From contig CAZYBE010000001.1 in assembly GCA_964645765.1 (NCBI GenBank), forward strand, positions 7,456 to 71,455: a stretch of DNA of 64,000 nt, read 5' to 3'. Of this stretch, positions 2,700-37,960 are shown piece after piece. Position 1 is the first letter of the stretch, and the number at the start of each line of letters is the position of its first letter. This DNA is from an uncultured Eubacteriales bacterium (GTDB lineage: Bacteria; Acidobacteriota; Aminicenantia; Aminicenantales; Aminicenantaceae). Both the position numbers and the translations under genes were made by a program. A model generated the notes under the pieces. The model saw only the letters and a list, made by a program, of their open reading frames with translations, was not told the origin of the DNA and did no database searches.

Positions 2700-2787
2700 T
2701 GGTGCGGAAGGTGGGACTCGAACCCACACGGTCTTATCGACCATAAACTCCTGAGGCTTACGCGTCTACCAATTCCGCCACTTCCGC
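2700..2787 (-). tRNA. tRNA-Leu (anticodon CAG), type II with long variable arm, CCA encoded
   Basis: The reverse complement folds as a cloverleaf: acceptor GCGGAAG/CTTCCGC, anticodon loop CTCAGGA, long variable arm, T-loop GGGTTCGAGTCCCAC, 3' CCA. Confidence 0.9.
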
Positions 2788-2986
2788 ACTCAGCGATAAT
2801 GAACAGCTTGTTTCGATTATGGCTTATTATAATTACATTCCGCCGAAGAGTAAAGACGGACAGCAGCGGAAAAAATTGCTTGACAAAAGCGAATACAATT
2901 CTTATTTTTATTGTTAAGGGTTGCATGTTAGGACTGCTTCAAAGAGAAAATTATTTCATACTTTTATTTTCAAAAAAGGAGGTCTG

Positions 2987-4135
2987 ATGAAACTTTTAAG
3001 CCGCCATCAAGTGGAGAACCTCTCCAAGTTCAAGAGTGAAAAATATTTAACAACCTCTTTTTATCTCAACACAGACAAAAGTCGGATGACAAAAAAAGAA
3101 ATAGCTCTTTCTTTGAAAAATCTTCTCAGCAGCGGAAAATTGCAGGCAGAGCAGATGGAAATGAGCAGGGAGAAGAAAGAGTCGCTTTTCCAAGACCTCG
3201 ATAAAATAAACCGCTTCTGTCTCGAACAGCTCGGCTCTTACAATTTCCACGGACTGGCCATATTCTCCTGCAGCGGCCAGAACTTCTGGCAACTTTTTAA
3301 CCTTCCCAGCCCGCCACGGAACAGAATCATCTTCGACCAGAATTCCTATGTCCGGCCCCTTTCGGCGATACTGGACGAGCATCGCCGCATTTTTGCCCTG
3401 ATTCTGCACCGGAGAGAAGCCAGATGGTACGACATTTTCATGGGGGAAATCACATCGCTCGAGAGCCTTTCGAGCGATGTCCCGAGCAAAGTCAGGGAAG
3501 GAGGCTTCGAAGGCTATGAATCGAAGAGAATCGAAAGGCACATTGCCACTCACCTCCATGACCATTTCAAGAAGGTCGCTCAAAAGACTTTCGATTTATT
3601 CAAGAAGAATCATTTTGACTGGCTCTTTCTGGGATGCAACGAGAAATACCGGGCAGACTTCGAGCCCCTCCTCCATCCCTATCTCAAAAGCAGGCTGCGG
3701 GGCTGGCTCAAGGCCATGCCCACCGATTCTGCGGCATCCATCCTCAAAGAATCGCTGGAACTGGAGAAAAATCTAAAAAAGGAAGAAGAAGGGGAGATCG
3801 TTCAGAATTTTGTCTCGGAACTGGAGAAGGGTGGCTTGGCTGTTTCAGGATTAAAAAATACACTCTCCAGCCTTAATCGCGGGGAGACCTTGACTCTGCT
3901 CATCACCCGCAACTTCTCAGCTCCGGGAAGAATCTGTCCTCAGTGCTACTCCCTGTTTATCGAAGAGCTCCGCTGCCCGACTTGTCAGAAGAAGACTGAA
4001 AAAGTGGTGGATGTCGTTGACGAAGCCGTAGAGGCGGCCATGAATAAACAGAGCACTGTCAAGCACATCAACCCTCCTTCAAGATTGAATAGATACGGAA
4101 AAATCGGAGCCCTGCTCAGGTACAAGACACAATAA
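2987..4135 (+). CDS. eRF1/Pelota-like (baeRF-type) domain protein with C-terminal C4 zinc ribbon
   Basis: AGGAGG SD before the ATG at 2987. The central region 'GLAVSGLKNTLSSLNRGETLTLLIT' resembles eRF1/Pelota domain 3 (AVYGxxEVxxALExGAVxTLLI). The C-terminus has 'CPQC...CPTC'. Family assignment is by motif recall only. Confidence 0.4.
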   Translation: MKLLSRHQVENLSKFKSEKYLTTSFYLNTDKSRMTKKEIALSLKNLLSSGKLQAEQMEMSREKKESLFQDLDKINRFCLEQLGSYNFHGLAIFSCSGQNFWQLFNLPSPPRNRIIFDQNSYVRPLSAILDEHRRIFALILHRREARWYDIFMGEITSLESLSSDVPSKVREGGFEGYESKRIERHIATHLHDHFKKVAQKTFDLFKKNHFDWLFLGCNEKYRADFEPLLHPYLKSRLRGWLKAMPTDSAASILKESLELEKNLKKEEEGEIVQNFVSELEKGGLAVSGLKNTLSSLNRGETLTLLITRNFSAPGRICPQCYSLFIEELRCPTCQKKTEKVVDVVDEAVEAAMNKQSTVKHINPPSRLNRYGKIGALLRYKTQ

Positions 4136-4140: not shown

Positions 4141-4172
4141 TAATGCGTGTTTTTTCACCACCCAGCCTGAGC
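4141..4172. repeat. 32-bp remnant of a family-1 repeat right end
   Basis: ttaatgcGTGTTTTttCAcCACCCAGCCTGAgc matches the right terminus of copy A (ttaatgca..gcgtgttttcaaaccacccagcctgatcc). It lies between two convergent genes. Confidence 0.6.
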
Positions 4173-4184
4173 TATATCTTTATA

Positions 4185-7100
4185 TTATTTAGCCCTTGAA
4201 AACTTGACCTTGTCAAACAAGCTGTAGATGATGGGGATGACAAACAGAGTCAGAAAAGTCGTGGCTGTCAACCCTCCGAGAACCGTAATCGCCATCGGAG
4301 CCCGCATCTCCGACCCCTCTGAGGTGCTAATAGCCATGGGCAGCATTCCGACGATTGTCGTCAGAGCCGTGACGAGAACAGGCCGGAGTCGAGTTACGCA
4401 GCCCTGAAGAATGGCTTCTTTCTTCTCCACCCCTCTCCTCTTCAATTGGTTGATGTAGTCAATCATGACGATGGCGTTGTTGACAGCAATTCCTGCAAGG
4501 AGGATGACGCCAATCAGGGCCGCGAGGCTGATGGGCTGGCCCGAGACAAGCAAAGCCAGGATAACTCCAATTATAGCCAGGGGAATGGTGAACATGATAA
4601 TGAAAGGATGGAGGAAGGACTCGAACTGGGAAGCCATGATCATATAAACCAGGAGCGTTGCCAGGGCAAAGGCACCAGCCATGATTTTAAAGGCGTCTGT
4701 CATCTGTTCGTACTGGCCGCCGATTTCAACAAAGTAACCTGAAGGCAATCCCTTTTCAATTTCAGCTGTTCTCGTTTTAATGTCTCTGACAACGCTGCCC
4801 AAATCCCTGCCAGCGATATTGGCGCTCACGGTAACGACCCGGGCCTGGTTCTCCCTCGTTATTTTGATAGGGCCTTCACCTCTTGATATCGAAGCGACCT
4901 GGTCTAAACGGGCCATGGTCTTTAAAGGAGTCATGATGGGAATGTTTCTTATATCATCCACGGTATCCCTGAACTTTTCATCAAAACGAATACGAATATC
5001 GATTTCTTCATCCCCTTCCCTGTATCTAGTGGCCACCTTTCCCAAGGCTGCTGTCTGGACAGCATCAGCCACCTGGCTAACCATCAAACCCATCCGCGAT
5101 GCCTGCTCCCTGTTTACGGAGATGTGATATTCGGGTTTTCCTTTGGCAAGAGAATGGGTGACATCCCTCAATCCCTCCACATTGTTGATTCTGTTGACCA
5201 TGTTGTCGGCTATCTCTTTAAGTACAGGCAGCTCTTTGCCAAAGATTTTTATCTCTACAGCTGACCCGGCTCCTCCCATCATCATCTGGCTCATATCCAG
5301 GGCCTCAAACTTAACATCTTTTAATTTAGGGAGCTTCCCTCGAATCCTTTCTAAGATTTGAGCATCGGTAAGCTTTCTTTTATTCCTGTCAACCAGTCCT
5401 ACCCAGAGAAGCCCATGATGAGTCCCCTCGATGCCGAAGCCTCCGGCTGCATCAGCAGGGTTATCCTCTGCTTGAGAGCCGACTTGAGCCGTTATGACTT
5501 TTATCAACGGCTCCTGAGCCATCAGGTTTTCCACTATCTGGACAACTCTGTCTGTCTCTTCAATTGACGTTCCTACAGGCATTTTGACAGAAAGGATGAA
5601 CATGCTCCGGTCCATGGAAGGCATAAATTCTGTCCCGAGGAAAGGAATGATGGCCAAGGAGAGCAAGAACAAGCCTAATGTTCCTCCGAGAACCCGCCAC
5701 CTGCGCTCCAGCGACCACTTCAATAATTTCCTGTAAAAATTCCTGGCTTTGTCGAACCGGCCGGCAAGCCTGGTTACTCCCTCTTTATTCTGTCTGGCGC
5801 TGACCTTGAAGAGTAAAGATGCAACAAGAGGAACAATTGTCAAAGCAACAAAGAGCGAGGCGATCAGAGAGAAAGCTATGGCCAGAGCCAGCCCGCGCGT
5901 CAACTTACCCGTGATTCCCCGGGCAAAGACCATGGGGAAGAATACAGCAATGGTGGTTAATGTTGAAGCGGTGATGGCCATTCCCACTTCAGAGGCGCCG
6001 ATCTTTGCCGCCTCATTCCTCGGCTTCCCTTCTTCGATGTGACGAAAGGTGTTCTCGATGACAACGATGGCATTATCGACTAGCATCCCAACACCCAAGG
6101 CCAAGCCGCCAAGAGTCAATAAGTTGAGGGTATAGCCGGCGAGGTAAAAGGCGATGAAGGTGGTGATGATCGAAAGAGGGATGGCCAGGGCGATGGTGAT
6201 CGTCGGACGCCAGTTTTGAACAAAGATAAGAATAAAAAGAATGGCCAGGAAGCCGCCAACCACAGCGTTATTCACTGTCCTGTCAACAGCTTGCTGGATC
6301 ATGTCTGATTGGTCAAAAACAGAGTAAAATTTGATATCAGGAGGAAGGATTTGACTTATCTTCGCCAGCTCTTTTTTAACGTCTTTGGCGGTGATAACAG
6401 TATTAGCCCCGGAGCGCTTGTTGATGATCAAATAAACTGCCTTCTGGCCCTGGATTCTTGCCAGATAACGGGCCTCTTTCATTGTATCTTTAACATCTGC
6501 CACATCCCGAAGGTAAATAGGCTGACCGACTTGAGTCGAGCCAACCACAGTGTTGCGAATATCGTTTGTAGATTTGAATTCGCCGAGACTCCTCACTAAA
6601 AATTCATAATGCCTCTCCACAATCCGTCCTCCAGGAAGGTTCAGGTTTTCCATCCTGAGAGCAAGAAGAATCTGGTCGAGCGAAAGGCCAAGGGATTCAA
6701 GAGCTGCTTTGTTGATGTCAACCAGAATCTCTCTGATATCTGTGGAGAAAACCTGGGCTGAGGCCACTCCTTCAATTCTATCCAGCCGGGAGGAGACTTC
6801 ATCCTTGATCAATTGCTGGAGCTCATAAGTCGGCATCCTTCCCGAGGTTATGCCATAAAAAATAACTGGGATCTGGGAAAGGCTGAATTTCACCACCAAA
6901 GGATTTGAGGCATCCTCAGGGAGGTAGCTCCGGTAAAGACCAATCTGGTCCCTGACATCCTGGGCGGCGAAATCGAGGTTTGTCCCCCACTCGAATTCGA
7001 CCAAAACCAAGGAAACCCCTTCTGAGGTTATCGAGTTGACTTTTTTTACACCACCGACAGAGTTTATGACTTGCTCCAAAGGCTTGGTGATTGTATTCTC

Positions 7101-7277
7101 GATATCCTCTGGAGAAGCGCCGCGATAGGTGGTGATCACAGAGACTGTCGGAAATTCAATATCAGGGAAAAAATCCAGGCCGAGCTTGGTCAAAGCGATA
7201 AACCCTAAAACGACCAAAATCATGGCCAGCATGGCTGTTGTGACTTTGCGGTTGACAGAAAAATCTGGAAGTTTCAT
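4185..7277 (-). CDS. RND efflux transporter permease (AcrB/HAE1 family)
   Basis: 1030 aa with 12-TM topology and conserved AcrB-type periplasmic/TM segments. Its start codon overlaps the adaptor-gene stop. Confidence 0.95.
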   Translation of the reverse strand: MKLPDFSVNRKVTTAMLAMILVVLGFIALTKLGLDFFPDIEFPTVSVITTYRGASPEDIENTITKPLEQVINSVGGVKKVNSITSEGVSLVLVEFEWGTNLDFAAQDVRDQIGLYRSYLPEDASNPLVVKFSLSQIPVIFYGITSGRMPTYELQQLIKDEVSSRLDRIEGVASAQVFSTDIREILVDINKAALESLGLSLDQILLALRMENLNLPGGRIVERHYEFLVRSLGEFKSTNDIRNTVVGSTQVGQPIYLRDVADVKDTMKEARYLARIQGQKAVYLIINKRSGANTVITAKDVKKELAKISQILPPDIKFYSVFDQSDMIQQAVDRTVNNAVVGGFLAILFILIFVQNWRPTITIALAIPLSIITTFIAFYLAGYTLNLLTLGGLALGVGMLVDNAIVVIENTFRHIEEGKPRNEAAKIGASEVGMAITASTLTTIAVFFPMVFARGITGKLTRGLALAIAFSLIASLFVALTIVPLVASLLFKVSARQNKEGVTRLAGRFDKARNFYRKLLKWSLERRWRVLGGTLGLFLLSLAIIPFLGTEFMPSMDRSMFILSVKMPVGTSIEETDRVVQIVENLMAQEPLIKVITAQVGSQAEDNPADAAGGFGIEGTHHGLLWVGLVDRNKRKLTDAQILERIRGKLPKLKDVKFEALDMSQMMMGGAGSAVEIKIFGKELPVLKEIADNMVNRINNVEGLRDVTHSLAKGKPEYHISVNREQASRMGLMVSQVADAVQTAALGKVATRYREGDEEIDIRIRFDEKFRDTVDDIRNIPIMTPLKTMARLDQVASISRGEGPIKITRENQARVVTVSANIAGRDLGSVVRDIKTRTAEIEKGLPSGYFVEIGGQYEQMTDAFKIMAGAFALATLLVYMIMASQFESFLHPFIIMFTIPLAIIGVILALLVSGQPISLAALIGVILLAGIAVNNAIVMIDYINQLKRRGVEKKEAILQGCVTRLRPVLVTALTTIVGMLPMAISTSEGSEMRAPMAITVLGGLTATTFLTLFVIPIIYSLFDKVKFSRAK

Positions 7278-8383
7278 TCTATGACCTCTTCAATTTTTAT
7301 TTTTGCCCCGTCCTCAAGGCCGTAGTTCCCCTCGATGACAACCAGGTCTCCTTCCTTGAGCCCTCCGGTAACTTCTATAAGCTCTGAATTCTGAAGGCCC
7401 AGAAAGACTTCTCTTCTCTGAGCCACATCTCCCTGGGCAAGGAAGACATATTTATTCTCGAGCACAGCCTTCTGAGGAATGACCAAAGCGTTTTCATGGG
7501 TGCTGACTTCGAGTGTTATCTCGCCAAAAGTGTTAGGCCTTAGGACCAAATCAGGGTTTTCAACCATGATTTCAACCTTGAATTTCTTGGTCAGCGGGTC
7601 GGCCGTCATATTGACAAGAGAAACGTGGCCCTCAAAAACTCTATCCGGGATGGCCATAACTCTGAGATGGGCGATCTGGCCTTTTTTGATGCGGACAAAA
7701 TCCTGCTGAGAAACATCGGATGCTATTTTTATTCGAGAGAAATCCATGAGCGTTAGAACACCGCTCGTCGGAGAAAAGCCGCCCATCATCGGGTTGATGA
7801 CATCTCCGACTTCAGCGTTTCTTGATGCAACGATCCCGCTGAAGGGAGCCTTCATCAAAGAAACACCAAGGCTGTGCTGTGCCAAATTCAATGCCGCTCG
7901 AGCCTGTTGAAGCTGGGCTTCAGCCGCTTCATAAGCGAGCTTAACTTTCTCATACTGCTGGTCTGAAACTGCTTTTTCCTGTTTCAAGCGCTCCATCCTC
8001 TCCATGTTTTTCTGAGCATCATTATAATTCGCCTCAGCAACGGCCAAACCCGCTTTGGCCGCTTCGAGCTGAAGGCGGATGGCCCTTGTGTCCAGCTCGG
8101 CTAGAAGCTGTCCTTCCTCGACTCTGTCTCCCTCCTGGACATAGATCTTGGCGATTTTTCCTCCAACATCAGGTGTTATGTTGATTTTCTTCCAAGCTTC
8201 AATCACTCCTGTATAAAATAGTTTCTCGGAAATTTTCTGCTTCTTGACTTTGAAGACCTTGACTGAAGTGGCAATAAAAGTTTCTTCCTTTACAGTTTCT
8301 TTCTTGCTCTGCGAGCAGCGGATGGAAAAGGAAAGAAAAAGGAGAAGAAGAGCAAGAACTTTTGCGACTTTTGCTTTTTTCAT
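7274..8383 (-). CDS. RND efflux periplasmic adaptor (membrane fusion protein, HlyD/AcrA family)
   Basis: Signal/lipoprotein N-terminus, coiled-coil hairpin and beta-barrel domains. Start chosen at the MKKAKV codon, which has a strong GGAGGAG SD; the ORF track extends to 8416. Confidence 0.9.
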   Translation of the reverse strand: MKKAKVAKVLALLLLFLSFSIRCSQSKKETVKEETFIATSVKVFKVKKQKISEKLFYTGVIEAWKKINITPDVGGKIAKIYVQEGDRVEEGQLLAELDTRAIRLQLEAAKAGLAVAEANYNDAQKNMERMERLKQEKAVSDQQYEKVKLAYEAAEAQLQQARAALNLAQHSLGVSLMKAPFSGIVASRNAEVGDVINPMMGGFSPTSGVLTLMDFSRIKIASDVSQQDFVRIKKGQIAHLRVMAIPDRVFEGHVSLVNMTADPLTKKFKVEIMVENPDLVLRPNTFGEITLEVSTHENALVIPQKAVLENKYVFLAQGDVAQRREVFLGLQNSELIEVTGGLKEGDLVVIEGNYGLEDGAKIKIEEVIE

Positions 8384-8412
8384 TTGACTCCTCCATGCAT
8401 CTTTCAAGATTC

Positions 8413-9768
8413 TCATTCTTTTTTCACTTTTGCGTTCATCCCTTCCAGGTCAACTCCCATCGCTTTCTCGAGCTGTGCTCGAGAGATAACATAATCGTAT
8501 AAGGCCTGGGAATAATTTGTCTTAGCCTGGCTAAGGGCGGCTTGAGCAGAGCTGACATCGAGAGTTGTCGCCATCCCCTCAGAAAAATTCAGCTCGGCTA
8601 TTCTCAAACTCTCCTGTGCCTGTTCAACGTTTTTTTCTTGAGAAAGGAGGGATTCATGGGCCTCCTTCAGCTTCAGGATGGCCTGTCTGACTTCGAATTT
8701 TATCATCTCCTGAAGCCCTTTATCGGCAAGCTCTATCTCTTTAATCATGGCCTTGGACTGAGCCACCCTGGCGGAAGCGGCAAAACCATTAAAGATTGGA
8801 ATGGAGAAGGCAAGATTTACTGTATAATAGCTTTGCCAATTGTCTTTTCCGAAATTGAGGTTATCAGCCCAGAAGTTGTAATTCCCGGATAAAGCGACGG
8901 TCGGCAGACTGGAGGCCCGAGCCATCTTCAGCATCTCTCCTGCCATCTCTTTCTGATACCTGACCTGGCTGACTTCAGGTCTGTTGAAAAGCGCCTTGGC
9001 AATCGACTCTTCCAAATCAGGCTCGAAAGGCTCAAAAGCCAGCTCTCCTTTAATTTCAACTTCCTGGGAAAGGTCGAGCCCGAGCAGAGTTTTTAAAGCA
9101 AGTTCTGCAATCTTCAAGCTGTTGCGGGTCCTGATCAATTGAGGCTTCAGGTTGGCGACCTGAACTTCAGACCTCAAAAGGTCAAACCTGGAGGCCATGC
9201 CGACTTCATAGAGACTCTTGACATTCTTATAATGTTTCTCCACAACTTCTACAGCTTCCTCGGCCACATTGACGAAATTCTTGGCGAGAAGACAACTGTA
9301 AAAAGCCAGCTTGGTGTTGAAAACAGTCGTCTGCTTGGACTGCCTCACTCCTTCTTCAGTGGAAAGAAGATTGTAGTTGGCTTGCTTGAACCCAGAGGTC
9401 AAACGGCCGCTGGTAAAGATGGGGAGGGTCAGGGATAAGGAGAATTGATAATCCTTGGTAAAGTCGATAGACATTCTCTGCGGAGGTTGACCTGGAACAA
9501 AGGAAGGGAATTCCAGGACGAAAAGCTTTTCATCAAGGGTTTGGAGCCCCTGGGCATTCAGCGAGGGGAAAAAGCTCGCTGCAGCTTCCCTGACCTGAGC
9601 TCTGGCCGTTTCCACTTTCTCTTCAGCAACCAGATAATTTGGGTTCTGAGCTAAAGCCAGGCGGAGGCTCTCCTCAAGGGTCAGAGTCAGTGTTCCCTGA
9701 GGAAAGGAAAATTTAATTGAAGAAAAGACCAACAGGGCAACCCATAACAGTCTTCTTACTTTCTTCAT
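8413..9768 (-). CDS. TolC-family outer membrane efflux protein
   Basis: 451 aa with signal peptide and two repeated OEP coiled-coil/beta segments. Lies upstream of the MFP-RND pair. Confidence 0.9.
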   Translation of the reverse strand: MKKVRRLLWVALLVFSSIKFSFPQGTLTLTLEESLRLALAQNPNYLVAEEKVETARAQVREAAASFFPSLNAQGLQTLDEKLFVLEFPSFVPGQPPQRMSIDFTKDYQFSLSLTLPIFTSGRLTSGFKQANYNLLSTEEGVRQSKQTTVFNTKLAFYSCLLAKNFVNVAEEAVEVVEKHYKNVKSLYEVGMASRFDLLRSEVQVANLKPQLIRTRNSLKIAELALKTLLGLDLSQEVEIKGELAFEPFEPDLEESIAKALFNRPEVSQVRYQKEMAGEMLKMARASSLPTVALSGNYNFWADNLNFGKDNWQSYYTVNLAFSIPIFNGFAASARVAQSKAMIKEIELADKGLQEMIKFEVRQAILKLKEAHESLLSQEKNVEQAQESLRIAELNFSEGMATTLDVSSAQAALSQAKTNYSQALYDYVISRAQLEKAMGVDLEGMNAKVKKE

Positions 9769-9787
9769 TTTGATACTCCTTTTAACC

Positions 9788-10456
9788 TTATCTGTCCTTT
9801 TTTATCCCGGAGAGGAAAAAAGTATGGAGCAAATCAGTGCTTTCGTTTATGCTATATTCTCTTTCACGCATAGGGCCTCTGATATAAAATCCCCGGACCA
9901 TGGCTCCAAAGACAAAAGCAGCATCCTTAACGTCCATTTTTCTAAATTCACCGGATTCGGTTCCCTCCTTGATAATATCACAGATAACATTAAAGATTTT
10001 TTCCATCTTCATCTTTAACTTATGCGGAATTTTTGGATGGGCGATGGATATCCAATTTCCTTTTCTGGAACGAAGGTTCATAATCCTTTTCATTGCCTCT
10101 CTTTCCATAAAGAGAATCCGAGCTATGTTTTTCTTCTTCTGGCTGTAGGAAGAGATGAAATAAATCACTTCCTTCAATTTCTTTTCAGCACTCACCTTCT
10201 CCTTCTGAATTTTCATCAATCTTTTCTCGGATTCCTCAAAAGCGTTGCTAATAATCTCCATAAATATCTCTTTTTTGCTTGCAAAATACTTGTAGAGAGT
10301 TGCCTTGGAAAATTGAACTTCTCCGGCGATGTCGTCCACTCTTGTCGAGCTATAGCCTTTCCGGCCAAAAACTCTTTCAGCGGCTTCTAAGATGAATTTC
10401 TTGTTCTGCTTCTTTCTGAGATTATCCCTTTTAATCCTTAAGTTACTTTTCATCAT
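9788..10456 (-). CDS. TetR/AcrR family transcriptional regulator (likely efflux operon regulator)
   Basis: N-terminal HTH 'RVFGRKGYSSTRVDDIAGEVQFSKATLYKYFASKKEIF'. First gene of the TetR-TolC-MFP-RND cluster. Confidence 0.9.
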   Translation of the reverse strand: MMKSNLRIKRDNLRKKQNKKFILEAAERVFGRKGYSSTRVDDIAGEVQFSKATLYKYFASKKEIFMEIISNAFEESEKRLMKIQKEKVSAEKKLKEVIYFISSYSQKKKNIARILFMEREAMKRIMNLRSRKGNWISIAHPKIPHKLKMKMEKIFNVICDIIKEGTESGEFRKMDVKDAAFVFGAMVRGFYIRGPMREREYSINESTDLLHTFFLSGIKKDR

Positions 10457-18611: not shown

Positions 18612-18845
18612 GGATCAGGCTGGGTGGTGAGAAAACCGTTTGAATAGCTCAGACAGCGTGGCTCGTCAGCACGCCGCTTTTGCCCCAGCGAGTCAAAAGC
18701 GGCTTGGTTCAAGGCTTCGCTCTCCTCTCCCTTCGGTTGAGGAACCATGCCCACTCAGCCTTTCACACGGCCTTCTCGCCACTCTGCCTTCGCCTTCTCT
18801 GTTTAATGCAAAGCCTGCGTGTTTTCAAACCACCCAGCCTGATCC
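18612..18845. repeat. Family-1 structured intergenic repeat, full-length copy A (234 bp, MITE-like)
   Basis: Terminal inverted repeats ggatcaggctgggtgg / ccacccagcctgatcc. Internal conserved hairpin gccgcttttgccccagcgagtcaaaagcggc and core ggcttcgctctcctctcccttcgg..gaggaaccatgcccactcagcc. Confidence 0.85.
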
Positions 18846-18851
18846 ATAATT

Positions 18852-19607
18852 TTAACTCTTCTTCTCGAACTCTTTTCCCTTGAGCATCTCCTGGGCCTGA
18901 GCTTTACAATCATCAACGCCAGAAAACCAACGAGAGTCAGAGGGCATGTTCAAAACGAATTCCAGTTCCTCCCTCGCTTTATCCACCTGCTTGAGCTCGA
19001 GATAGGTATCGGCCAAATAGATTCGAGTCACCGGGTCGTTTGGACCAAACTCCTTGGACTTGAGAAGATGCTCGAGCGACTTTTTATTATCTCCGCCGGC
19101 AAATCCTGGCAGCTTGAAATAGACTCTTCCCAGCACCCTGTCCGGACCTCCATCCTCGTAGGACCGTTCGATCTCGATGACCTTGTTCATCGCTTCCTTT
19201 ATGTCGTCGACTAAGAACAGGCTTTTTAAAACGCCTCTCGCCTCTCCATAGACTCCATAAACCACGCCGAGCCAGTAATAACCATCCGGCCTGTTGGGCT
19301 TCGATTCCACTGCCTTCTTGCCGTAATAGATTCCCTGTTCGAAAATTATCTTTTTATCCTTGTTTTTTTCTGTGTGAGACCCGATGTAATAGTGCATCCT
19401 GGCAATCTTCCAGTAGGCGTCATACTTATCATCGATTTTGAGAAGAGCGTCCATGTACTTTGATAAAGCTTCCCGGGCTGTGGCCATATCCTTCATCTCG
19501 GCATAGAGCGCATCGGCTTGGGCAATCAGCTCCTTGGCATCCTGACAGAAGAGAGAAAGAGAAATAGAAAAAAAGATAAAAACCAGAAAAAATATTTTTC
19601 CTCTCAT
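18852..19607 (-). CDS. TPR-like secreted/lipo-protein
   Basis: Start set at MRGKIFFLVFIFFSISLSLFC (signal peptide) with a GGAG SD. Helical repeat composition. Confidence 0.55.
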   Translation of the reverse strand: MRGKIFFLVFIFFSISLSLFCQDAKELIAQADALYAEMKDMATAREALSKYMDALLKIDDKYDAYWKIARMHYYIGSHTEKNKDKKIIFEQGIYYGKKAVESKPNRPDGYYWLGVVYGVYGEARGVLKSLFLVDDIKEAMNKVIEIERSYEDGGPDRVLGRVYFKLPGFAGGDNKKSLEHLLKSKEFGPNDPVTRIYLADTYLELKQVDKAREELEFVLNMPSDSRWFSGVDDCKAQAQEMLKGKEFEKKS

Positions 19608-21847: not shown

Positions 21848-22132
21848 TCCGTGATATTAAAACGACTGCGAGGGTGAGGGTTTGGAGGTGAGGAGTCCCC
21901 TATGATGCTCAGGCCAGCGGGCTCAAAAACACGCAACTTTTGCCCCAGCGAGGCAAAAGTTGCTCGGTTTCAGGCTTCGCTCTCCTCTCCTTCGGAGAGG
22001 AACCATGCCCGCTCAGCCTTCAAACGATTTTTTCACCCGTTGGCCTTCGCAGGTACTATTTTCCTCGCTGGGGAAAATCAGCGTGCTCCGAACCTCCAAA
22101 CCCTCACCCATATCACGGAATTAGGGATGCTT
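21848..22132. repeat. Family-1 repeat, B-subtype copy (about 285 bp) in a divergent promoter region
   Basis: Inverted termini tccgtgatat...gagggtgagggtttggaggt / acctccaaaccctcaccc...atatcacgga. Contains the same conserved hairpin (cgcaacttttgccccagcgaggcaaaagttgc) and core, with a perfect ctcctctcc-TTCG-gagagga hairpin. Confidence 0.85.
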
Positions 22133-28959: not shown

Positions 28960-29517
28960 TTAAAGCTCTAAGATCTCTTTTTCCTTGGCTGCGGCGAGCT
29001 CTTCGATCTTCTTGGAGTATTCGTCGGTTATTTCCTGGAGCTTATCAAAGCCCTTGTATTTATCATCCTCGGTAATCTTCTTATCTTTTTCCAGCTCTTC
29101 AATTTTCTCTTTTATCTCCCTTCTCATCACCCGAAGAGCCATCTTCTCATCCTCGAGCATTTTCCGGATGTGTTTGGCCATCTCCTTTCTTCTCTCCTCA
29201 TCCAAAGGCGGGATCGGGACTTTGAGAATCTTTCCGTCGTTAATCGGGTTAAGACCCAGGTCAGCGCTCTTAATGGCCTTATCGATAGTATCCAGCAAGG
29301 ACGAGTCCCAGGGCTGAACTGTGATCAGAGTTGGGTCAGGGACTCCAAGCGTGGCCACCTGATTGAGGGGCATCAAGCTTCCGTAGTAGTCCACTTTTAT
29401 ATCTTCAAAAATGCTGATATTCGCCCTTCCTGTCCTCAATCGGCTCAAGTCTTTACGAAAATGCTCCGCTGAGACCTTCATCTTTTTCTCAAGCTCTATC
29501 AACAATTCTTTGACCAT
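28960..29517 (-). CDS. frr: Ribosome recycling factor
   Basis: 185 aa. 'VDYYGSLMPLNQVATLGVPDPTLITVQPWD' is the canonical RRF sequence. Confidence 0.95.
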   Translation of the reverse strand: MVKELLIELEKKMKVSAEHFRKDLSRLRTGRANISIFEDIKVDYYGSLMPLNQVATLGVPDPTLITVQPWDSSLLDTIDKAIKSADLGLNPINDGKILKVPIPPLDEERRKEMAKHIRKMLEDEKMALRVMRREIKEKIEELEKDKKITEDDKYKGFDKLQEITDEYSKKIEELAAAKEKEILEL

Positions 29518-29579
29518 CTTTATCCCTATTTATTTCCTGAACACCGTCACGCCGTTAATATAAACATAATATTTCATCT

Positions 29580-29694
29580 ATCATCGCGAGGAGCGGAGCG
29601 ACGTGGCGATCTCATCAAACTAAGAGATTGCCACGCCCTTCGGGCTCGCAATGACAGGCTCATCACCACGCTCCCTCTGGTCGCTCGCCATGAC
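29580..29694. repeat. Family-2 palindromic hairpin element (composite, 115 bp) in the pyrH-frr intergenic region
   Basis: Arms aTCATCGCGAGGagcggagcgaCGTGGCGATCTCAT / GAGATTGCCACGccCTTCGggCTCGCAATGAC, plus a third related arm. Confidence 0.8.
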
Positions 29695-29721
29695 TATGTA
29701 ACAAAATTCATTGCGTCTATA

Positions 29722-31891: not shown

Positions 31892-32296
31892 TTATCTCTT
31901 GTGGTACTGAGGAGCCTTGCGGGCGCCCAGCAACCCATATTTCTTTCTTTCCTTGATCCTTGCGTCTCGGGTCAAAAGCCCGGCTCCCTTAAGTGTGGGC
32001 CTCAACTCCCTGTTGAACTCGGTTAATGCCCTGGCGATTCCCAATCGAATCGCATCAACCTGTCCGCTCACTCCGCCGCCGTTGACCCTGATGAAGATAT
32101 CAAATTTGCTCTCTGTCTCTGTCAGGCGGAGAGGCTGCTTGATGACGTGCTTTTGTCTTTCCAGGTGGAAATATTCATTGAACTGGCGAGGTGTTTTGTT
32201 CACGTATAAAGTGATGTCTCCTTTTCCAGGGCGGAGAAAGACCCTCGCCACTGATGTTTTTCTCTTCCCTGTTCCGTAATACTGGATTAAGCTCAA
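31892..32296 (-). CDS. rpsI: 30S ribosomal protein S9
   Basis: '[16 protein letters not shown]' and the C-terminal '[10 protein letters not shown]'. Confidence 0.95.
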
Positions 32297-32304
32297 TTTT
32301 CCTC

Positions 32305-32733
32305 CTAAAACTCGTGAACCTGGGGTTTTTGAGCCTGATGAGGATGGTCAGGGCCTTTGTAGACCTTGAGCTTTTTATACAAAGCTCGGCCGAGCTTCCC
32401 TTTGGGAACCATTCCCCAGACTGCTCTTCGAATGACCTCTTCAGGTTTCTTCTCTAAAAGCTCTTTAAGGGTTTTGACTTTCAGCCCTCCGGGGTAAAGA
32501 GAATGAGAATAATATTTTTTGTCTTCAAGCTTTTTCCCGGTGACATGAATTTTTTCGGCATTGATGACAATCACGAAATCTCCGCAATCAAGAAAAGGGG
32601 TAAACTTAGGCTTCCTCTTTCCCCGGAGCAAAACTGCAATTTCAGTGGCCAGCCTTCCCAGGGTTTTTCCTTGGGCATCAATCAGCCACCAATTCTTGCG
32701 GATCTCACTTTTCTTCAGACTATACGTTTTCAT
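32305..32733 (-). CDS. rplM: 50S ribosomal protein L13
   Basis: '[32 protein letters not shown]'. Confidence 0.95.
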
Positions 32734-34731: not shown

Positions 34732-36057
34732 TCAGCCCTTTCTCATGAGCAAGCGGATGGGCGTTCCCCAGAAACCAAACTTTTCCCGCAAAAGTTTGGT
34801 GAAAAATTTCTGATAGGAAGGAGCAAGGGATAGCCGCGAAGAACTGAAGAGGGCAAATGTCGGAGGGAGGGTTCCCTTTTGAGTCATGTATTTTATCCTG
34901 AATCTTTTCTTGTCTTTTGAGAGAGGGGAATAATTCTTGTTCACCCCAGATAAAAATCTGTTCAGCTGCGATGTTGCTACTCTTTTGCACCCGTTCCGGT
35001 AGACTTGCTCGGCGAAGTCAAGAATATTTATAACTCTTTGCCCGGTTAGAGCCGAGATAAAGAGAAGGGGCGCGTAACTGACAAAGTCGAGCCTGGCATA
35101 AACTCGGTTCCTAAAATTCTCTGAAGTCTTATGGTCTTTCTCGACCAAATCCCACTTGTTCAGGGCAATGAGTAACGGTCTCCCCGATTCATGGGACAAA
35201 TGGGCGATGGCCAAATCTTGACGGGTGGCAAATTCCCTGGCATCCATGGTCAAGCAAACAACATCCGCCTGGGTGATATCCTTCTTGGCTTTGATGATAC
35301 TCGCCTTTTCTCTTCTATCGCGGGTGCGGATCAGTTTCTTTATTCCTGCGGTATCGACCAGGACGAAAGCTTTTTTCTCCCTGAAGATCATAGTATCGGT
35401 GCTATCCCTGGTCGTTCCAGGAATCTCACTAACGATGAGCCTCGGCTCCCCGCAGATGCGGTTGACGATAGAAGATTTTCCGACATTGATCCGGCCGACA
35501 ATGGCTATCCGCAGCGGCTTTGTTTCCCTTTTTTCTGTAACAGGCCCGGGCAAGACTTCAATAAGGCCTGACTCAAGAATCTCCAGATTTCTTTTATGCT
35601 CGGCTGATATGGCAAAGATTTTCTCCGCTCCCAGCCGGTAATAATCGCCAAGCTTGGCTTCCTCGGGTGGAGTATCGATCTTGTTGACCACGACAAAAAC
35701 CGGCTTGTTCAACTTTTTCAAAGAAAAATAAAGCTCCTCCTCTGCCGGAAGGAGTTCGCGCTTTCCATCCAGGACAAAAAGGACAAGGTCTGCCTTCTCG
35801 GCAGCCTGCTTTGCCTTTTCTCTGACCAAAGACGAGATGGGGTCTTCTGCAGAATCGTAAAATCCTCCGGTATCAACCAGGATAAACTTCTTTGTGTCCA
35901 AGAAGCAGATGGAAGAGACCTGGTCGCGGGTCATGCCGGGCAAGGAATGAACAAGCGATTTGCGCTCTTTCGAAAGACGGTTAAAGAGGGTGGATTTCCC
36001 GACATTGGGGAAGCCGATGATGGCAACATTCGGTAGTTTTTTCATCGAGAAGCTCAT
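34732..36057 (-). CDS. der: Ribosome biogenesis GTPase Der (EngA)
   Basis: Two tandem GTPase domains ('GFPNVGKSTLFNRL' and 'GRINVGKSSIVNRI') plus a KH-like C-terminus. Confidence 0.95.
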   Translation of the reverse strand: MSFSMKKLPNVAIIGFPNVGKSTLFNRLSKERKSLVHSLPGMTRDQVSSICFLDTKKFILVDTGGFYDSAEDPISSLVREKAKQAAEKADLVLFVLDGKRELLPAEEELYFSLKKLNKPVFVVVNKIDTPPEEAKLGDYYRLGAEKIFAISAEHKRNLEILESGLIEVLPGPVTEKRETKPLRIAIVGRINVGKSSIVNRICGEPRLIVSEIPGTTRDSTDTMIFREKKAFVLVDTAGIKKLIRTRDRREKASIIKAKKDITQADVVCLTMDAREFATRQDLAIAHLSHESGRPLLIALNKWDLVEKDHKTSENFRNRVYARLDFVSYAPLLFISALTGQRVINILDFAEQVYRNGCKRVATSQLNRFLSGVNKNYSPLSKDKKRFRIKYMTQKGTLPPTFALFSSSRLSLAPSYQKFFTKLLREKFGFWGTPIRLLMRKG

Positions 36058-37486: not shown

Positions 37487-37516
37487 TTCTTTTCTTTGTC
37501 TCTCAGAGATTAAATT

Positions 37517-37864: not shown

Positions 37865-37960
37865 ATAACTCAAGCTAAGATTATATTTTGACCTGAAATC
37901 TTTGTCAACACATTGAATTTCAAAGGAACGATCTTTCTTTCCGTGGTGAAAAGCCTCGTT

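What the first reader, a model, noticed from the sequence alone, without database searches (positions are those of the whole stretch)
2987..4135. Stand-alone eRF1/Pelota-like (baeRF-type) protein with a C-terminal zinc ribbon next to tRNA-Leu
The 382-aa protein carries a segment (GLAVSGLKNTLSSLNRGETLTLLIT) that resembles domain 3 of eRF1/Pelota/Dom34, and it ends in a CxxC...CxxC ribbon. Bacterial eRF1-like proteins are rare. They are thought to act in ribosome rescue or in conflict systems. This one has its own TTGACA promoter and sits between a tRNA gene and the efflux operon, with a family-1 repeat remnant just downstream at 4141-4172.
Basis: partly seen in the sequence, partly recalled or inferred. 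Interest (0 to 1): 0.55.

Follow-up and report, generated by a model that had tools for sequence, protein, structure and literature searches.

The report
Balon-like bacterial eRF1 homolog, GGQ→GGF
This gene encodes a bacterial copy of the archaeal/eukaryotic release factor eRF1, from the same protein family as the ribosome "hibernation" factor Balon of mycobacteria; it most likely parks in idle ribosomes rather than ending translation, and the one new detail is that its whole clade replaces the catalytic glutamine with a bulky aromatic residue.

Summary
Bases 2987-4135 (+) encode a 382-aa, three-domain aeRF1-like protein in a Candidatus Aminicenantes genome.

**Family.** It passes Pfam baeRF_family10 (65 bits against a cut-off of 27.1). 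The experimentally solved mycobacterial hibernation factor Balon (Msmeg1130) scores 125 bits on the same model. Ribosome-bound Msmeg1130 is also the best structural match (TM 0.72-0.76), ahead of aRF1/eRF1 and Pelota.

**Zinc ribbon.** The four cysteines are invariant, but the ribbon is the ancestral aRF1 insert inside domain 3, not a C-terminal tail.

**Catalytic loop.** The loop is the best-conserved block, yet GGQ is GGF here. Across 127 distant relatives the position is aromatic in 84% and Gln in 3%. There is no NIKS motif.

**Context.** The gene is a single-gene unit with a footprinted TTGACA-17-TATyTT promoter. It is vertically conserved across Aminicenantia between tRNA-Leu(CAG) and an RND efflux operon.

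**Reading.** Most likely it is a Balon-type plug of the ribosomal A site and peptidyl-transferase centre (PTC), confidence about 0.6. The main rival is a glutamine-less peptidyl-tRNA hydrolase. Bacterial eRF1 homologs are not rare.

**Verdict.** A new member of a known kind, with modest interest.

The parts
2987..4135 (+). Coding sequence of the 382-aa baeRF family 10 (Balon-related aeRF1-like) protein, stop codon included
   Evidence: ORF and sequence. Pfam PF18854 at 65 bits against a cut-off of 27.1. Orthologs at 49-97% identity across Aminicenantia. Model pLDDT 82, best fold match Balon Msmeg1130.
2987..3337 (+). N-terminal domain (about aa 1-117): a beta-strand (SFYLN), a long helical hairpin (aa 36-84), then three strands. 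No NIKS motif and no His-Pro motif.
   Evidence: DSSP of the model. The hairpin tip (aa 50-62) is unconserved in 127 representatives. Residues 1-161 alone hit only Balon chains in PDB (8v9j_z E 0.0029; 8rd8_B E 0.28), not aRF1.
3344..3361 (+). Conserved junction motif S-Y-V-R-P-L (family consensus P-Y-v-R-P-L), at the position of eRF1's YxCxxxF region and of Msmeg1130's P-F-I-H-P-L
   Evidence: P124 is conserved in 91% and L125 in 96% of 127 representatives. Alignments to eRF1 and Msmeg1130.
3338..3772 (+). Middle (RNase-H-fold, eRF1 domain 2-like) domain, about aa 118-262
   Evidence: PF18854 covers aa 121-258; eRF1_2 covers aa 137-213, sub-threshold.
3476..3541 (+). Catalytic-loop equivalent, DVPSKVREGGFEGYESKRIERH (aa 164-185). 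GGF (bases 3500-3508) replaces GGQ. Basic residues R181, R184 and H185 follow in the downstream helix.
   Evidence: This is the most conserved block in 42 orthologs. It aligns on 'VPGKQRKGGQS..QRFARL' of aRF1/eRF1. Aromatic at position 174 in 84% of 127 representatives, Gln in 3%. Low pLDDT at aa 170-177.
3773..4132 (+). C-terminal (Pelota/eRF1 domain 3-like) domain, about aa 263-382
   Evidence: PF03465 eRF1_3 covers aa 267-380, E 0.0022, sub-threshold. TIGR03676 aRF1 match runs to aa 381.
3926..4006 (+). Zinc ribbon inserted in domain 3 (aa 314-340; C317-P-Q-C320 ... C330-P-T-C333)
   Evidence: The four Cys are invariant in orthologs and kept in 113 of 127 representatives. The site aligns with the aRF1 insert (4af1). 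The second knuckle aligns with M. mazei aRF1 'NCPKCG'. The ZnR is described as an ancestral aeRF-1 feature in PMC6514570.
2880..2908 (+). Sigma-70-type promoter of the gene: -35 TTGACA (2880-2885), 17-nt spacer, -10 TATTTT (2903-2908)
   Evidence: Consensus scan gives 10 of 12 matches. CTTGACAA and TATyTT are invariant in 12 orthologous intergenic regions whose mean identity is 44%.
2978..2982 (+). Shine-Dalgarno GGAGG, 4 nt before the ATG
   Evidence: Sequence. Invariant in 12 loci.
2700..2787 (-). tRNA-Leu(CAG), a divergently transcribed neighbour. Its promoter-like site is at 2854-2826 (-). This is context, with no demonstrated functional link.
   Evidence: ARAGORN and Rfam. Promoter scan. 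ATTATA and AGAGTAAAG blocks are conserved. The tRNA lies on the opposite strand within 1.5 kb in 51 of 60 Aminicenantia loci.
4144..4182 (+). Remnant of an interspersed intergenic repeat between the gene and the convergent RND pump gene (context)
   Evidence: Repeat family D4: 4144-4182, 18816-18854 (82%), 38082-38120 (64%).
4185..10456 (-). Convergent RND efflux operon (pump 4185-7277, MFP 7274-8416, OEP 8413-9768, TetR-like 9788-10456). A positional neighbour on the opposite strand, not co-transcribed.
   Evidence: ORFs. Pfam annotation of the orthologous loci L001/L002. Convergent downstream in 59 of 64 loci.

Best explanation
The gene encodes a Balon-type ribosome-silencing (hibernation) factor of the bacterial aeRF1 clade, Pfam baeRF family 10.

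**Shown here**
- It has the three-domain tRNA-mimic architecture of aRF1/Balon.
- It belongs to the same Pfam family as the solved hibernation factor Msmeg1130, and it resembles the ribosome-bound form of that protein best.
- It lacks NIKS, and it lacks the catalytic Gln. GGQ is GGF here and GG-W/F/Y clade-wide.
- It keeps the aRF1 zinc ribbon, the invariant Gly-Gly, and the basic helix behind the loop.
- It is a single-gene unit with its own conserved sigma-70-type promoter, inherited vertically in Aminicenantia.

**Inferred**
- Under stress or starvation the protein enters the ribosomal A site independently of the mRNA codon, since the N-domain tip is unconserved.
- The middle domain extends its Gly-Gly loop toward the peptidyl-transferase centre (PTC). 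There the aromatic side chain stacks on rRNA: either the A-site crevice at A2451/C2452, or A2602, the base that Balon's lasso loop wraps. This would block both tRNA accommodation and hydrolysis.
- The domain-3 zinc ribbon occupies the site where Balon carries the beta-loop that contacts EF-Tu(GDP).
- The net effect would be reversible inactivation and protection of ribosomes.
For: - Pfam PF18854 at 65 bits, above the cut-off of 27.1. Msmeg1130 Balon scores 125 bits on the same model.
- hhalign of the broad clade profile against Msmeg1130: probability 99.1%, E 1.8e-18 over 287 columns.
- Foldseek best hits are 8v9j_z/8v9l_z (ribosome-bound Msmeg1130), E 1.7e-23, TM 0.72-0.76. Then aRF1 4af1 at 2.4e-20, P. 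urativorans Balon at 3.4e-18, and Pelota at about 1e-7.
- The N-domain alone hits only Balon chains.
- No NIKS: the hairpin tip is unconserved.
- The catalytic Gln is replaced by an aromatic residue in 84% of 127 representatives and in 118 of 120 Aminicenantes orthologs.
- The basic residues after the loop are conserved: R181 66% (plus K 13%), R184 83%, H185 80%. This fits the large-subunit rRNA binding proposed in PMC6514570.
- Neighbourhoods of distant clade members lean towards stress, proteostasis and rescue: ClpB and DnaJ; DnaK/GrpE, a sigma factor and an M50 protease; ArsA-HSP20; ArfB-like plus SNase; YacP plus RtcB. This matches the neighbourhoods reported for Balon (PMC10901736).
- PADLOC finds nothing.
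Against: - There is no experimental datum for any GG-aromatic member.
- It fails all three curated NCBIfam Balon equivalog models by a wide margin: 66 against 330, 57 against 480 and 32 against 320 bits. It scores as well on aRF1, 70.5 against 234.7.
- It has no His-Pro motif in the N-domain. Balon's lasso loop and bL27 trap cannot be recognised from sequence.
- The loop is the most conserved part of the protein, with fixed length and invariant Gly-Gly. Burroughs and Aravind associate that pattern with catalytically active families, whereas inactive baeRF families have variable loops (PMC6514570).
- No RaiA/HPF gene is adjacent in any of the loci examined. Only about 20 of roughly 50 window genes were scanned against Pfam.
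- The aromatic-into-PTC step is pure inference. The model's loop has pLDDT below 50.
Confidence: 0.6

Rival explanations
1. It is a catalytically active, glutamine-independent peptidyl-tRNA hydrolase or ribosome-rescue factor. The Gly-Gly loop reaches the PTC as in aRF1, and backbone-mediated catalysis releases peptides from stalled ribosomes, independent of the stop codon. This would parallel ArfB or Vms1.
For: - The loop context is almost identical to aRF1: 'VPGKHKMGGQSQRRYERI' in A. pernix aRF1 against 'VPGRHDQGGWSQARFQRH' and 'VPSKVREGGFEGYESKRIERH' in the clade.
- The GG is invariant, and the loop length is fixed within each subtype. PMC6514570 links that pattern to active families and names family 10 as potentially active.
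- NCBI names some clade members 'Vms1/Ankzf1 family peptidyl-tRNA hydrolase'.
- Some relatives sit next to RtcB, a YacP/Rae1-like nuclease, or an ArfB-like gene.
- From general knowledge of bacterial RF1/RF2 mutagenesis (my recollection, not checked here): the Gln side chain mainly selects water, and several substitutions keep partial activity.
Against: - The Gln is replaced by W/F/Y in 84% of representatives, and only 3% have Gln.
- The window subtype also lacks the downstream 'SQ' glutamine.
- The family member with a solved structure (Msmeg1130) is a non-hydrolysing hibernation factor (PMC10901736).
- A bulky aromatic residue at the position that coordinates the hydrolytic water is hard to reconcile with catalysis.
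- The NCBI 'Vms1' name rests on a sub-threshold acVLRF1 similarity (27.7 bits against a cut-off of 125).
Confidence: 0.2
2. It is a codon-specific alternative termination factor: a bacterial aRF1 that reads stop or sense codons.
For: It has the three-domain aRF1 architecture, an aRF1-like middle domain and the zinc ribbon. PMC6514570 raises the possibility that full-length baeRF-1 proteins recognise stop codons.
Against: - There is no NIKS, and the hairpin tip that carries it in aRF1 is unconserved.
- The N-domain has no detectable sequence similarity to aRF1 N-domains.
- There is no catalytic Gln.
- It scores 70.5 bits against the aRF1 equivalog cut-off of 234.7.
- baeRF-1 proteins have never displaced RF1/RF2 in the bacteria that carry them (PMC6514570).
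Confidence: 0.03
3. It is a component of a biological-conflict or anti-phage system that targets or rescues ribosomes.
For: Burroughs and Aravind proposed conflict-driven origins for baeRF-1 rescue pathways (PMC6514570). A HicAB pair and an HNH gene lie a few kb away in one distant locus.
Against: - PADLOC gives no hit.
- In Aminicenantia the gene is a single-copy, vertically inherited core gene in a fixed housekeeping neighbourhood. The tRNA-Leu is upstream in 51 of 60 loci and the RND operon downstream in 59 of 64.
- It has no linked partner gene and no mobile-element hallmarks at the locus.
Confidence: 0.03

Closest known systems
Balon, mycobacterial type (Msmeg1130 / MSMEG_1130; PDB 8V9J, 8V9L; Helena-Bueno et al. 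2024, PMC10901736)
   Same: - Same Pfam family, PF18854.
- Best structural match over the full length, TM 0.72-0.76.
- hhalign probability 99%.
- Same three-domain layout and length of about 375-382 aa.
- Shared 'S-[LF]-Y-[LF]-N-x-D' first strand and 'P-[YF]-[VI]-[RH]-P-L' junction motif.
- No NIKS.
   Different: - Only about 15% identity, and 57 bits against a cut-off of 480 on the curated MSMEG_1130 family model.
- Msmeg1130 has '...ERAGQMREQ...' where this clade has an invariant GG followed by an aromatic residue. The register differs by one residue between HMMER and hhalign.
- This clade keeps an intact Cys4 zinc ribbon. Sequence alignments to Msmeg1130 stop at that insert, so its state there was not determined.
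Balon, Psychrobacter type (AOC03_06830; PDB 8RD8/8RDV/8RDW)
   Same: Same fold and A-site tRNA-mimic architecture (Foldseek E 3.4e-18, TM 0.63). Full-length sub-threshold match to NF052287 (66 bits).
   Different: - 12-14% identity.
- The Psychrobacter protein has 'REHPAND' after the first strand, presumably the HP motif. The window protein has 'NTDKSRMTKKE', with no His-Pro in its N-domain.
- Balon has a lasso loop instead of a GG loop, plus a bL27 trap and a beta-loop for EF-Tu (PMC10901736). This protein has an aRF1-like GG loop and a zinc ribbon.
Archaeal/eukaryotic class-I release factor aRF1/eRF1 (TIGR03676; PDB 4AF1, 3AGK, 1DT9)
   Same: - The middle and C-terminal domains align over residues 102-351.
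- The loop context VP-x-K-x-x-x-GG and the basic helix behind it are shared.
- The zinc ribbon sits at the same insertion point in domain 3.
   Different: - GGQ is GGF.
- There is no NIKS, and the N-domain is not detectably similar.
- 70.5 bits against a cut-off of 234.7.
- It occurs in a bacterium. Per PMC6514570, baeRF-1 proteins have never displaced RF1/RF2.
Pelota/Dom34
   Same: Shares the middle and C-terminal domain folds (Foldseek E 1e-7 to 1e-4). Also lacks a catalytic Gln.
   Different: Pelota has an Sm-like beta-barrel N-domain and a poorly conserved loop (PMC6514570). Here the N-domain is the aRF1/Balon type and the loop is the best-conserved segment. Pelota is the most distant of the three comparators.
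Vms1/ANKZF1-like release factors (acVLRF1, PF18859 / NF041024)
   Same: The sister subtype of this clade carries GGWSQ, which resembles the GGxSQ motif of aVLRF-1/acVLRF-1. It gets sub-threshold to weak acVLRF1 hits and, in some records, the NCBI name.
   Different: The window protein gives no acVLRF1 hit and has no Gln in the loop. It has the full three-domain aRF1 layout, which acVLRF1 lacks (PMC6514570).

Membership tests
Pfam PF18854 baeRF_family10 (bacterial aeRF-1 clade, Burroughs & Aravind 2019) | Score above the curated gathering threshold of the family HMM | tested here: met
   65 bits against 27.1, residues 121-258 matching profile positions 2-140 of 143. Distant clade members score 83-115 bits and Msmeg1130 scores 125 bits.
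Pfam PF18854 baeRF_family10 (bacterial aeRF-1 clade, Burroughs & Aravind 2019) | Three-domain classical aeRF-1 architecture (N-domain, RNase-H-fold middle domain, Pelota-like C-domain) | tested here: met
   Sub-threshold eRF1_2 and eRF1_3 matches. The model and the full-length Foldseek alignments to Balon, aRF1 and eRF1 agree.
Pfam PF18854 baeRF_family10 (bacterial aeRF-1 clade, Burroughs & Aravind 2019) | Conserved basic residues at the start of the helix after the catalytic loop | tested here: met
   K180, R181, R184 and H185 are invariant or nearly so in orthologs. In 127 representatives R184 is 83% and H185 is 80%.
Pfam PF18854 baeRF_family10 (bacterial aeRF-1 clade, Burroughs & Aravind 2019) | [quoted passage not shown] | tested here: not met
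   The loop is DVPSKVREGGFEGYESKRIERH, with no Gln. Position 174 is aromatic in 84% and Gln in 3% of representatives. A Gln exists only as 'GGWSQ' in the sister subtype and as 'AGQ' in Msmeg1130.
Balon ribosome hibernation factors (Helena-Bueno et al. 2024; NCBIfam NF052287/8/9) | Passes a curated Balon equivalog model | tested here: not met
   66.2 against 330, 57.1 against 480 and 32.2 against 320 bits. The same holds for nine other clade members.
Balon ribosome hibernation factors (Helena-Bueno et al. 2024; NCBIfam NF052287/8/9) | Homology and fold similarity to a structurally validated Balon | tested here: met
   Foldseek top hits are 8v9j_z/8v9l_z, E 1.7e-23, TM 0.72-0.76. hhalign probability 99.1%. 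Same Pfam family. The paper's own operational definition (iterated HMMER from Balon or aRF1, at least 300 aa, bacterial) would include it.
Balon ribosome hibernation factors (Helena-Bueno et al. 2024; NCBIfam NF052287/8/9) | Absence of the aeRF1 NIKS and GGQ motifs | tested here: met
   No NIKS, and the hairpin tip is unconserved. GGQ is GGF. Unlike the Psychrobacter Balon, the Gly-Gly and the aRF1-like loop context are retained.
Balon ribosome hibernation factors (Helena-Bueno et al. 2024; NCBIfam NF052287/8/9) | HP motif in the N-domain that contacts A1492/A1913 | tested here: not met
   No His-Pro dipeptide in residues 1-117. The loop aligned with 'REHPAND' of the P. urativorans protein reads 'NTDKSRMTKKE' (weak alignment, E 0.28). 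Where the motif sits in Balon was inferred from the sequence and the preprint's wording, so this is a sequence-level test only.
Balon ribosome hibernation factors (Helena-Bueno et al. 2024; NCBIfam NF052287/8/9) | Lasso loop around A2602, bL27 trap, and EF-Tu(GDP)-binding beta-loop | not testable with these tools
   These features are defined on cryo-EM structures. No superposition in the ribosome context is available, and the model's loop has pLDDT below 50. The zinc ribbon lies at the insertion site where PMC6514570 describes a 2-beta-strand insert in other baeRF families.
Balon ribosome hibernation factors (Helena-Bueno et al. 2024; NCBIfam NF052287/8/9) | mRNA-independent binding to the ribosomal A site; inhibition of translation; induction in stress or stationary phase | not testable with these tools
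   Needs biochemistry, cryo-EM or transcriptomics.
Balon ribosome hibernation factors (Helena-Bueno et al. 2024; NCBIfam NF052287/8/9) | Typical location in stress-response operons, often next to raiA/hpf | tested here: inconclusive
   Here and in about 60 Aminicenantia loci the gene is monocistronic, between tRNA-Leu and a convergent RND operon. Distant relatives sit near ClpB, DnaJ, DnaK-GrpE, HSP20-like, RtcB and ArfB-like genes, but no hpf was seen.
Classical aRF1/eRF1 (TIGR03676) | Equivalog HMM cut-off; GGQ; NIKS/YxCxxxF stop-codon motifs | tested here: not met
   70.5 against 234.7 bits, with only residues 117-381 matching. GGF replaces GGQ, there is no NIKS, and the N-domain does not hit aRF1.
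Classical aRF1/eRF1 (TIGR03676) | Zinc ribbon inserted in the C-terminal Pelota-like domain | tested here: met
   C317/C320/C330/C333 are invariant. The ribbon aligns with the insert of 4af1 and with the 'NCPKCG' knuckle of 3ir9.
Pelota/Dom34 | Sm-like beta-barrel N-domain; variable, Gln-less loop | tested here: not met
   The N-domain is alpha/beta with a long helical hairpin. The loop is the best-conserved block. Pelota hits are weak, E 1e-7 or worse, with TM below 0.45.
Vms1/VLRF1-type peptidyl-tRNA hydrolases (PF18859, NF041024) | GxuQ / GGxSQ loop with a catalytic Gln; HMM match | tested here: not met
   The window protein gives no PF18859 hit and has no Gln in the loop. Only the sister GGWSQ subtype gives acVLRF1 hits, far below the NCBIfam cut-off (27.7 against 125).
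Known anti-phage defence systems (PADLOC-DB 2.0) | Match to any defence-system protein model | tested here: not met
   0 families at E <= 1.

The most novel reading that the evidence does not exclude
The GG-aromatic, zinc-ribbon-bearing branch of baeRF family 10 may be a mechanistically distinct class of A-site factor. This branch covers this protein and most of its about 2,400 cluster representatives in Aminicenantes, WOR-3, Cloacimonadota, Zixibacteria, Chloroflexi, Gemmatimonadota, Deltaproteobacteria and some Actinomycetota. On this reading it is an almost unaltered aRF1 middle domain whose catalytic Gln has been specifically swapped for Trp/Phe/Tyr. The loop would fully enter the PTC, unlike Balon's lasso, which stays outside U2585. 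The aromatic ring would insert into the A-site crevice, either freezing peptidyl-tRNA as an 'anti-release factor' or catalysing release without glutamine. It would then be the evolutionary intermediate between aRF1 and Balon.
Probability: 0.25. Interest if true: 0.6.

Novelty: new member of a known kind. Interest (0 to 1): 0.36.

Why it matters
It extends the recently discovered Balon/aeRF1-type hibernation machinery to Aminicenantia, an uncultured and globally abundant sediment lineage known for slow growth. There it is a fixed, vertically inherited core gene rather than a sporadically transferred one.

It also clarifies the literature. Pfam baeRF family 10, singled out in 2019 as possibly catalytic because of a conserved glutamine, contains both the validated hibernation factor Msmeg1130 ('AGQ') and a much larger set of proteins in which that position is aromatic. 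The Gly-Gly, the loop context and the aRF1 zinc ribbon are all kept in that larger set.

This gives a concrete, testable handle on how a release factor was converted into a ribosome silencer: a W/F-to-Q swap, GG-to-AA, and Cys-to-Ser in the ribbon.

For genome annotation, these proteins are currently labelled 'hypothetical', 'eRF1' or 'Vms1/Ankzf1 peptidyl-tRNA hydrolase'. None of those labels is supported.

Tried and rejected
- **PADLOC scan** for defence systems: nothing.
- **Structured leader or riboswitch upstream:** Rfam finds only the tRNAs and the tmRNA. The 5' leader folds no better than shuffles, z = -0.75. Its sequence is not conserved apart from the promoter and the Shine-Dalgarno site.
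- **Operon partner or functional link to the RND efflux genes:** rejected. The pump operon is on the opposite strand and convergent. In the Saccharicenans group an unrelated 741-aa gene is inserted between the two.
- **HPF/RaiA next to the gene:** not found in the window ORFs scanned or in 10 annotated loci of relatives.
- **Broad-profile scan of reference genomes:**
  - The first attempt failed because alignment A2 had no conserved 7-10 column stretch.
  - The narrower alignment A3 returned almost only Aminicenantia, so the taxonomic spread of distant members rests on a few named cluster members.
- **Second homology search** with the broad profile: it again returned mostly Aminicenantes because of the word index.
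- **Locating Msmeg1130's state at the zinc-ribbon site** with the C-domain alone: no Balon hit.
- **The 'AGQ' to 'GGW' correspondence:** it differs by one residue between HMMER and hhalign, so I treat it as approximate.
- **Pelota as the closest relative:** rejected, as it is the most distant of the three comparators.
Full report
**1. The observation**

The window contains an ORF at 2987-4135 (+) of 382 codons. The mechanical ORF list begins at an upstream TTG (2921). The real start is the ATG at 2987. It is preceded by GGAGG (2978-2982), every homolog begins MKL..., and the GGAGG and ATGAAA blocks are invariant in 12 orthologous loci.

The quoted segment GLAVSGLKNTLSSLNRGETLTLLIT is residues 283-307. 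The CxxC...CxxC is C317/C320/C330/C333. tRNA-Leu(CAG) lies at 2700-2787 on the minus strand. The RND pump gene lies at 4185-7277 on the minus strand. The downstream 'repeat remnant' is real: 4144-4182 matches 18816-18854 at 82%, which is the tail of a larger interspersed repeat.

The organism is a member of Candidatus Aminicenantes. The best homologs, at 63-97% identity, come from Aminicenantes/Aminicenantales MAGs.

**2. What the protein is**

*Sequence profiles.* Pfam assigns residues 121-258 to PF18854 baeRF_family10, at 65 bits against a gathering score of 27.1. eRF1 domain 2 and domain 3 match below threshold. NCBIfam gives full-length but far sub-threshold matches:

| Model | Bits | Cut-off |
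|---|---|---|
| aRF1 (TIGR03676) | 70.5 | 234.7 |
| AOC03_06830 Balon family | 66.2 | 330 |
| MSMEG_1130 Balon family | 57.1 | 480 |
| Rv2629 Balon family | 32.2 | 320 |

PADLOC finds nothing.

*Structure.* An AlphaFold2 model built on 42 orthologs has pLDDT 82.3 and pTM 0.64. Its best PDB matches are:

| Match | Foldseek E-value | TM-score |
|---|---|---|
| Ribosome-bound Msmeg1130 Balon (8v9j_z/8v9l_z) | 1.7e-23 | 0.72-0.76 |
| aRF1 (4af1) | 2.4e-20 | about 0.5 |
| P. urativorans Balon | 3.4e-18 | 0.63 |
| Eukaryotic eRF1 | about 1e-16 | about 0.5 |
| Pelota/Dom34 | 1e-7 or weaker | below 0.45 |

*Link to a validated Balon.* The Msmeg1130 segment printed in the alignment is itself a strong PF18854 member, at 125 bits. 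A profile of the broad clade aligns to it with 99.1% probability, E 1.8e-18. So the window protein shares a Pfam family with an experimentally validated A-site hibernation factor (Helena-Bueno et al. 2024, PMC10901736).

**3. Anatomy**

*N-domain (about aa 1-117).* It has a first strand, SFYLN-x-D, which is also seen in Msmeg1130 as SLYFNAD. A long helical hairpin (aa 36-84) follows, then three strands. The hairpin tip, where aRF1 carries NIKS, is unconserved across 127 distant representatives. On its own, this domain hits only Balon chains in PDB, not aRF1.

It has no His-Pro dipeptide. The loop aligned with 'REHPAND' of the Psychrobacter Balon reads 'NTDKSRMTKKE' (weak alignment).

*Junction.* A strongly conserved P-Y-v-R-P-L motif (P124 91%, L125 96%) sits at the junction between the N and middle domains. 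It corresponds to eRF1's YxCxxxF region and to Msmeg1130's P-F-I-H-P-L.

*Middle domain.* DVPSKVREGG[W/F]EGYESKRIERH is the most conserved block of the protein. It aligns residue for residue with the GGQ loop of aRF1/eRF1, 'VPGKQRKGGQS..QRFARL'. The Gly-Gly is invariant, but the catalytic Gln is Phe here.

- In Aminicenantes-like orthologs the position is W in 107 and F in 11 of 120.
- In 127 representatives at 26-53% identity it is aromatic in 84% and Gln in 3%.

Two loop subtypes exist. The window's subtype is GG-x-x-G-[YL]-E-x-KRIERH. A shorter one is QGGW[SA]QARFQRH, very close to A. pernix aRF1 'MGGQSQRRYERI'.

Burroughs and Aravind (PMC6514570) singled out family 10 for a 'well-conserved glutamine'. 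My data suggest that this refers to the 'SQ' glutamine of the short subtype, to the 'AGQ' of actinobacterial members such as Msmeg1130, or to both. The alignment register for 'AGQ' is uncertain by one residue. The window protein has no glutamine in the loop.

*C-domain.* The Cys4 ribbon (aa 314-340) is an insert within domain 3 at the site of the aRF1 zinc ribbon. It is retained in 113 of 127 representatives. One actinobacterial member has lost the cysteines. PMC6514570 describes a 2-beta-strand remnant at this site in many baeRF families. Separately, the Balon paper describes a unique beta-loop in the C-domain that contacts EF-Tu(GDP). Whether these are the same element was not tested here.

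**4. Genomic setting**

*Promoters.* The gene is a single-gene transcription unit. A TTGACA-17-TATTTT site lies at 2880-2908. In 12 orthologous intergenic regions with only 44% mean identity, several blocks are invariant: CTTGACAA, TATyTT, GGAGG and ATGAAA. The reverse-strand -10 and -35 of the divergent tRNA-Leu promoter are also conserved: the ATTATA core of the -10 is invariant, and the -35 block (AGAGTAAAG) only largely so. The leader has no significant structure and no Rfam match.

*Synteny.* Among GTDB species-representative genomes, 80 loci were retrieved, and all but one come from Aminicenantes-type genomes (49-87% identity).

- tRNA-Leu(CAG) lies on the opposite strand within 1.5 kb in 51 of 60 loci with enough flank.
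- The radical-SAM gene lies upstream in 52 of 60.
- The RND pump is convergent downstream in 59 of 64.

This indicates vertical inheritance of a core gene, not the sporadic transfer typical of baeRF-1 genes. The adjacency to the efflux operon is positional only. The operon is on the opposite strand, and in Saccharicenans an unrelated gene is inserted between them.

*Distant relatives.* Members of the wider clade occur in Deltaproteobacteria, Anaerolineae, WOR-3, Cloacimonadota, Zixibacteria, Gemmatimonadota, Syntrophaceae and Actinomycetota. Their neighbourhoods vary but lean towards stress, proteostasis or rescue genes:

- ClpB with a DnaJ-domain gene.
- DnaK/GrpE with a sigma factor and an M50 protease.
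- ArsA-HSP20.
- An ArfB-like gene plus SNase.
- A YacP/Rae1-like NYN nuclease plus RtcB.

Two further loci lie between uvrC and uvrB. No hpf/raiA neighbour was seen.

**5. Mechanism**

*Best explanation, confidence about 0.6.* The protein is a Balon-type ribosome-silencing factor.

Shown here:
- The fold, and shared family membership with a solved hibernation factor.
- Loss of the codon-reading motif and of the catalytic Gln.
- Retention of the rRNA-binding basic helix.

Inferred:
- Codon-independent A-site binding.
- Insertion of the GG loop toward the PTC, with the aromatic ring stacking on rRNA (the A-site crevice or A2602) to block accommodation and hydrolysis.
- The zinc ribbon as the elongation-factor-facing element.
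- Expression under stress.

*Main rival, confidence about 0.2.* It is a Gln-independent peptidyl-tRNA hydrolase or rescue factor. The argument for it is the extreme, aRF1-like conservation and fixed length of the loop, which Burroughs and Aravind associate with active families. The RtcB, YacP and ArfB neighbours of some relatives also fit. The arguments against are the aromatic replacement of the water-coordinating residue and the behaviour of Msmeg1130.

*Minor rivals, about 0.03 each.* A codon-specific termination factor and a conflict-system component are both unlikely.

**6. Comparison and membership**

It is a member of Pfam baeRF_family10. The HMM score, the architecture and the basic helix are all met. 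The 'conserved glutamine' ascribed to that family is not.

It is a Balon homolog in the broad sense used by Helena-Bueno et al. However, it is not a member of any of the three curated Balon equivalog families. It lacks a recognisable HP motif. It differs from the solved Balons by its intact GG loop and zinc ribbon, which are aRF1 features.

It is not an aRF1 (no GGQ, no NIKS, below cut-off), not a Pelota, and not a Vms1-type hydrolase.

The mix of a Balon-like N-domain with an aRF1-like loop and ribbon suggests an intermediate position between aRF1 and Balon. That is inference only, since no tree was built.

**7. Novelty and verdict**

The family is catalogued (Pfam, 2019) and its general function was established for a family member in 2024. 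The ortholog is already present in public MAGs, annotated as hypothetical or as eRF1. Hence the rating: new member of a known kind.

I found no published description of three points in the papers searched:
- The clade-wide GGQ-to-GG-aromatic substitution together with a retained zinc ribbon.
- The fact that Pfam family 10 unites this clade with Msmeg1130.
- The gene's status as a fixed core gene of Aminicenantia.

These are worth a specialist's note, but they do not change the category. Interest 0.36.

Noticed in passing
window 18631-18789, 21909-21990, 37948-38106, 40893-41051 (partial copy 4144-4182): An interspersed intergenic repeat family of about 80-160 nt. It contains a hairpin (GC..CTTTTGCCCCAGCGAG.CAAAAG..GC) and a CTTCGCTCTCCTCTCC tail. 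One copy lies immediately beside the tmRNA gene, and a 39-nt tail remnant lies just after the baeRF gene. It looks like a REP/MITE-type element.
   Followed up: partly
window 29576-29721, 48554-48668, 39309-39337: A second, unrelated repeat family (ATCATCGCGAGG.GCG.AGCG.CGTGGCGATCTCAT ... CCACGCTCC...CTCGCCATGA), in two long copies and one short copy, all intergenic.
   Followed up: no
window 37516-37864 (-): A tmRNA gene whose predicted tag peptide is only 8 residues long (AETLPVAA), shorter than the usual tag of about 10-11 residues.
   Followed up: no
window 59124-59597 (+); L083 5459-5932 (+), 6001-7143 (+), 7164-8630 (-): The window encodes a YacP/Rae1-like NYN-domain protein 55 kb from the baeRF gene. 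In a Gemmatimonadota relative (35% identity), a YacP-like gene sits 68 bp upstream of the baeRF10 gene on the same strand, with an RtcB RNA ligase gene convergent downstream. This may be an RNA-damage or rescue module. It was seen in only one locus.
   Followed up: partly
window 4109-4128 (- strand): A terminator-like hairpin plus T-run on the minus strand, lying inside the last 27 bases of the baeRF coding sequence. It is plausibly the terminator of the convergent RND efflux operon, so the two transcription units would overlap at their 3' ends.
   Followed up: no
window 2826-2908: Back-to-back divergent promoters within about 80 bp. TTTACT-17-TATAAT on the minus strand serves tRNA-Leu(CAG), and TTGACA-17-TATTTT on the plus strand serves the baeRF gene. 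Both are conserved by footprinting in 12 loci. A growth-rate-controlled tRNA promoter abutting a putative hibernation-factor promoter could allow reciprocal regulation, but this is speculation.
   Followed up: partly
protein P0143 and its 28-member cluster; also P0145, P0249: Rare members of the GG-aromatic clade have a true G-G-Q ('PGGGQYGFDERHIERR'). In P0143 this comes with a 22-residue insertion just upstream in the loop and an intact zinc ribbon. One cluster member is labelled Zixibacteria. These would be the best candidates for catalytically active bacterial aeRF1 proteins.
   Followed up: no
window 28960-29517 (-), 31892-32733 (-), 34732-36057 (-): Translation-related genes elsewhere in the window: ribosome recycling factor, ribosomal proteins S9 and L13, and the GTPase Der/EngA. 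No hpf/raiA was found among the ORFs scanned, which were about 20 of roughly 50.
   Followed up: partly
L045-L047, L058-L063, L066, L069, L071, L075, L076, L079 (Saccharicenans-type loci): In the Saccharicenans branch, about 2.5 kb is inserted between the baeRF gene and the RND pump. In L047 it is a single 741-aa minus-strand gene. In some of these loci (for example L045-L047), extra genes also separate the baeRF gene from the tRNA-Leu and radical-SAM pair.
   Followed up: partly
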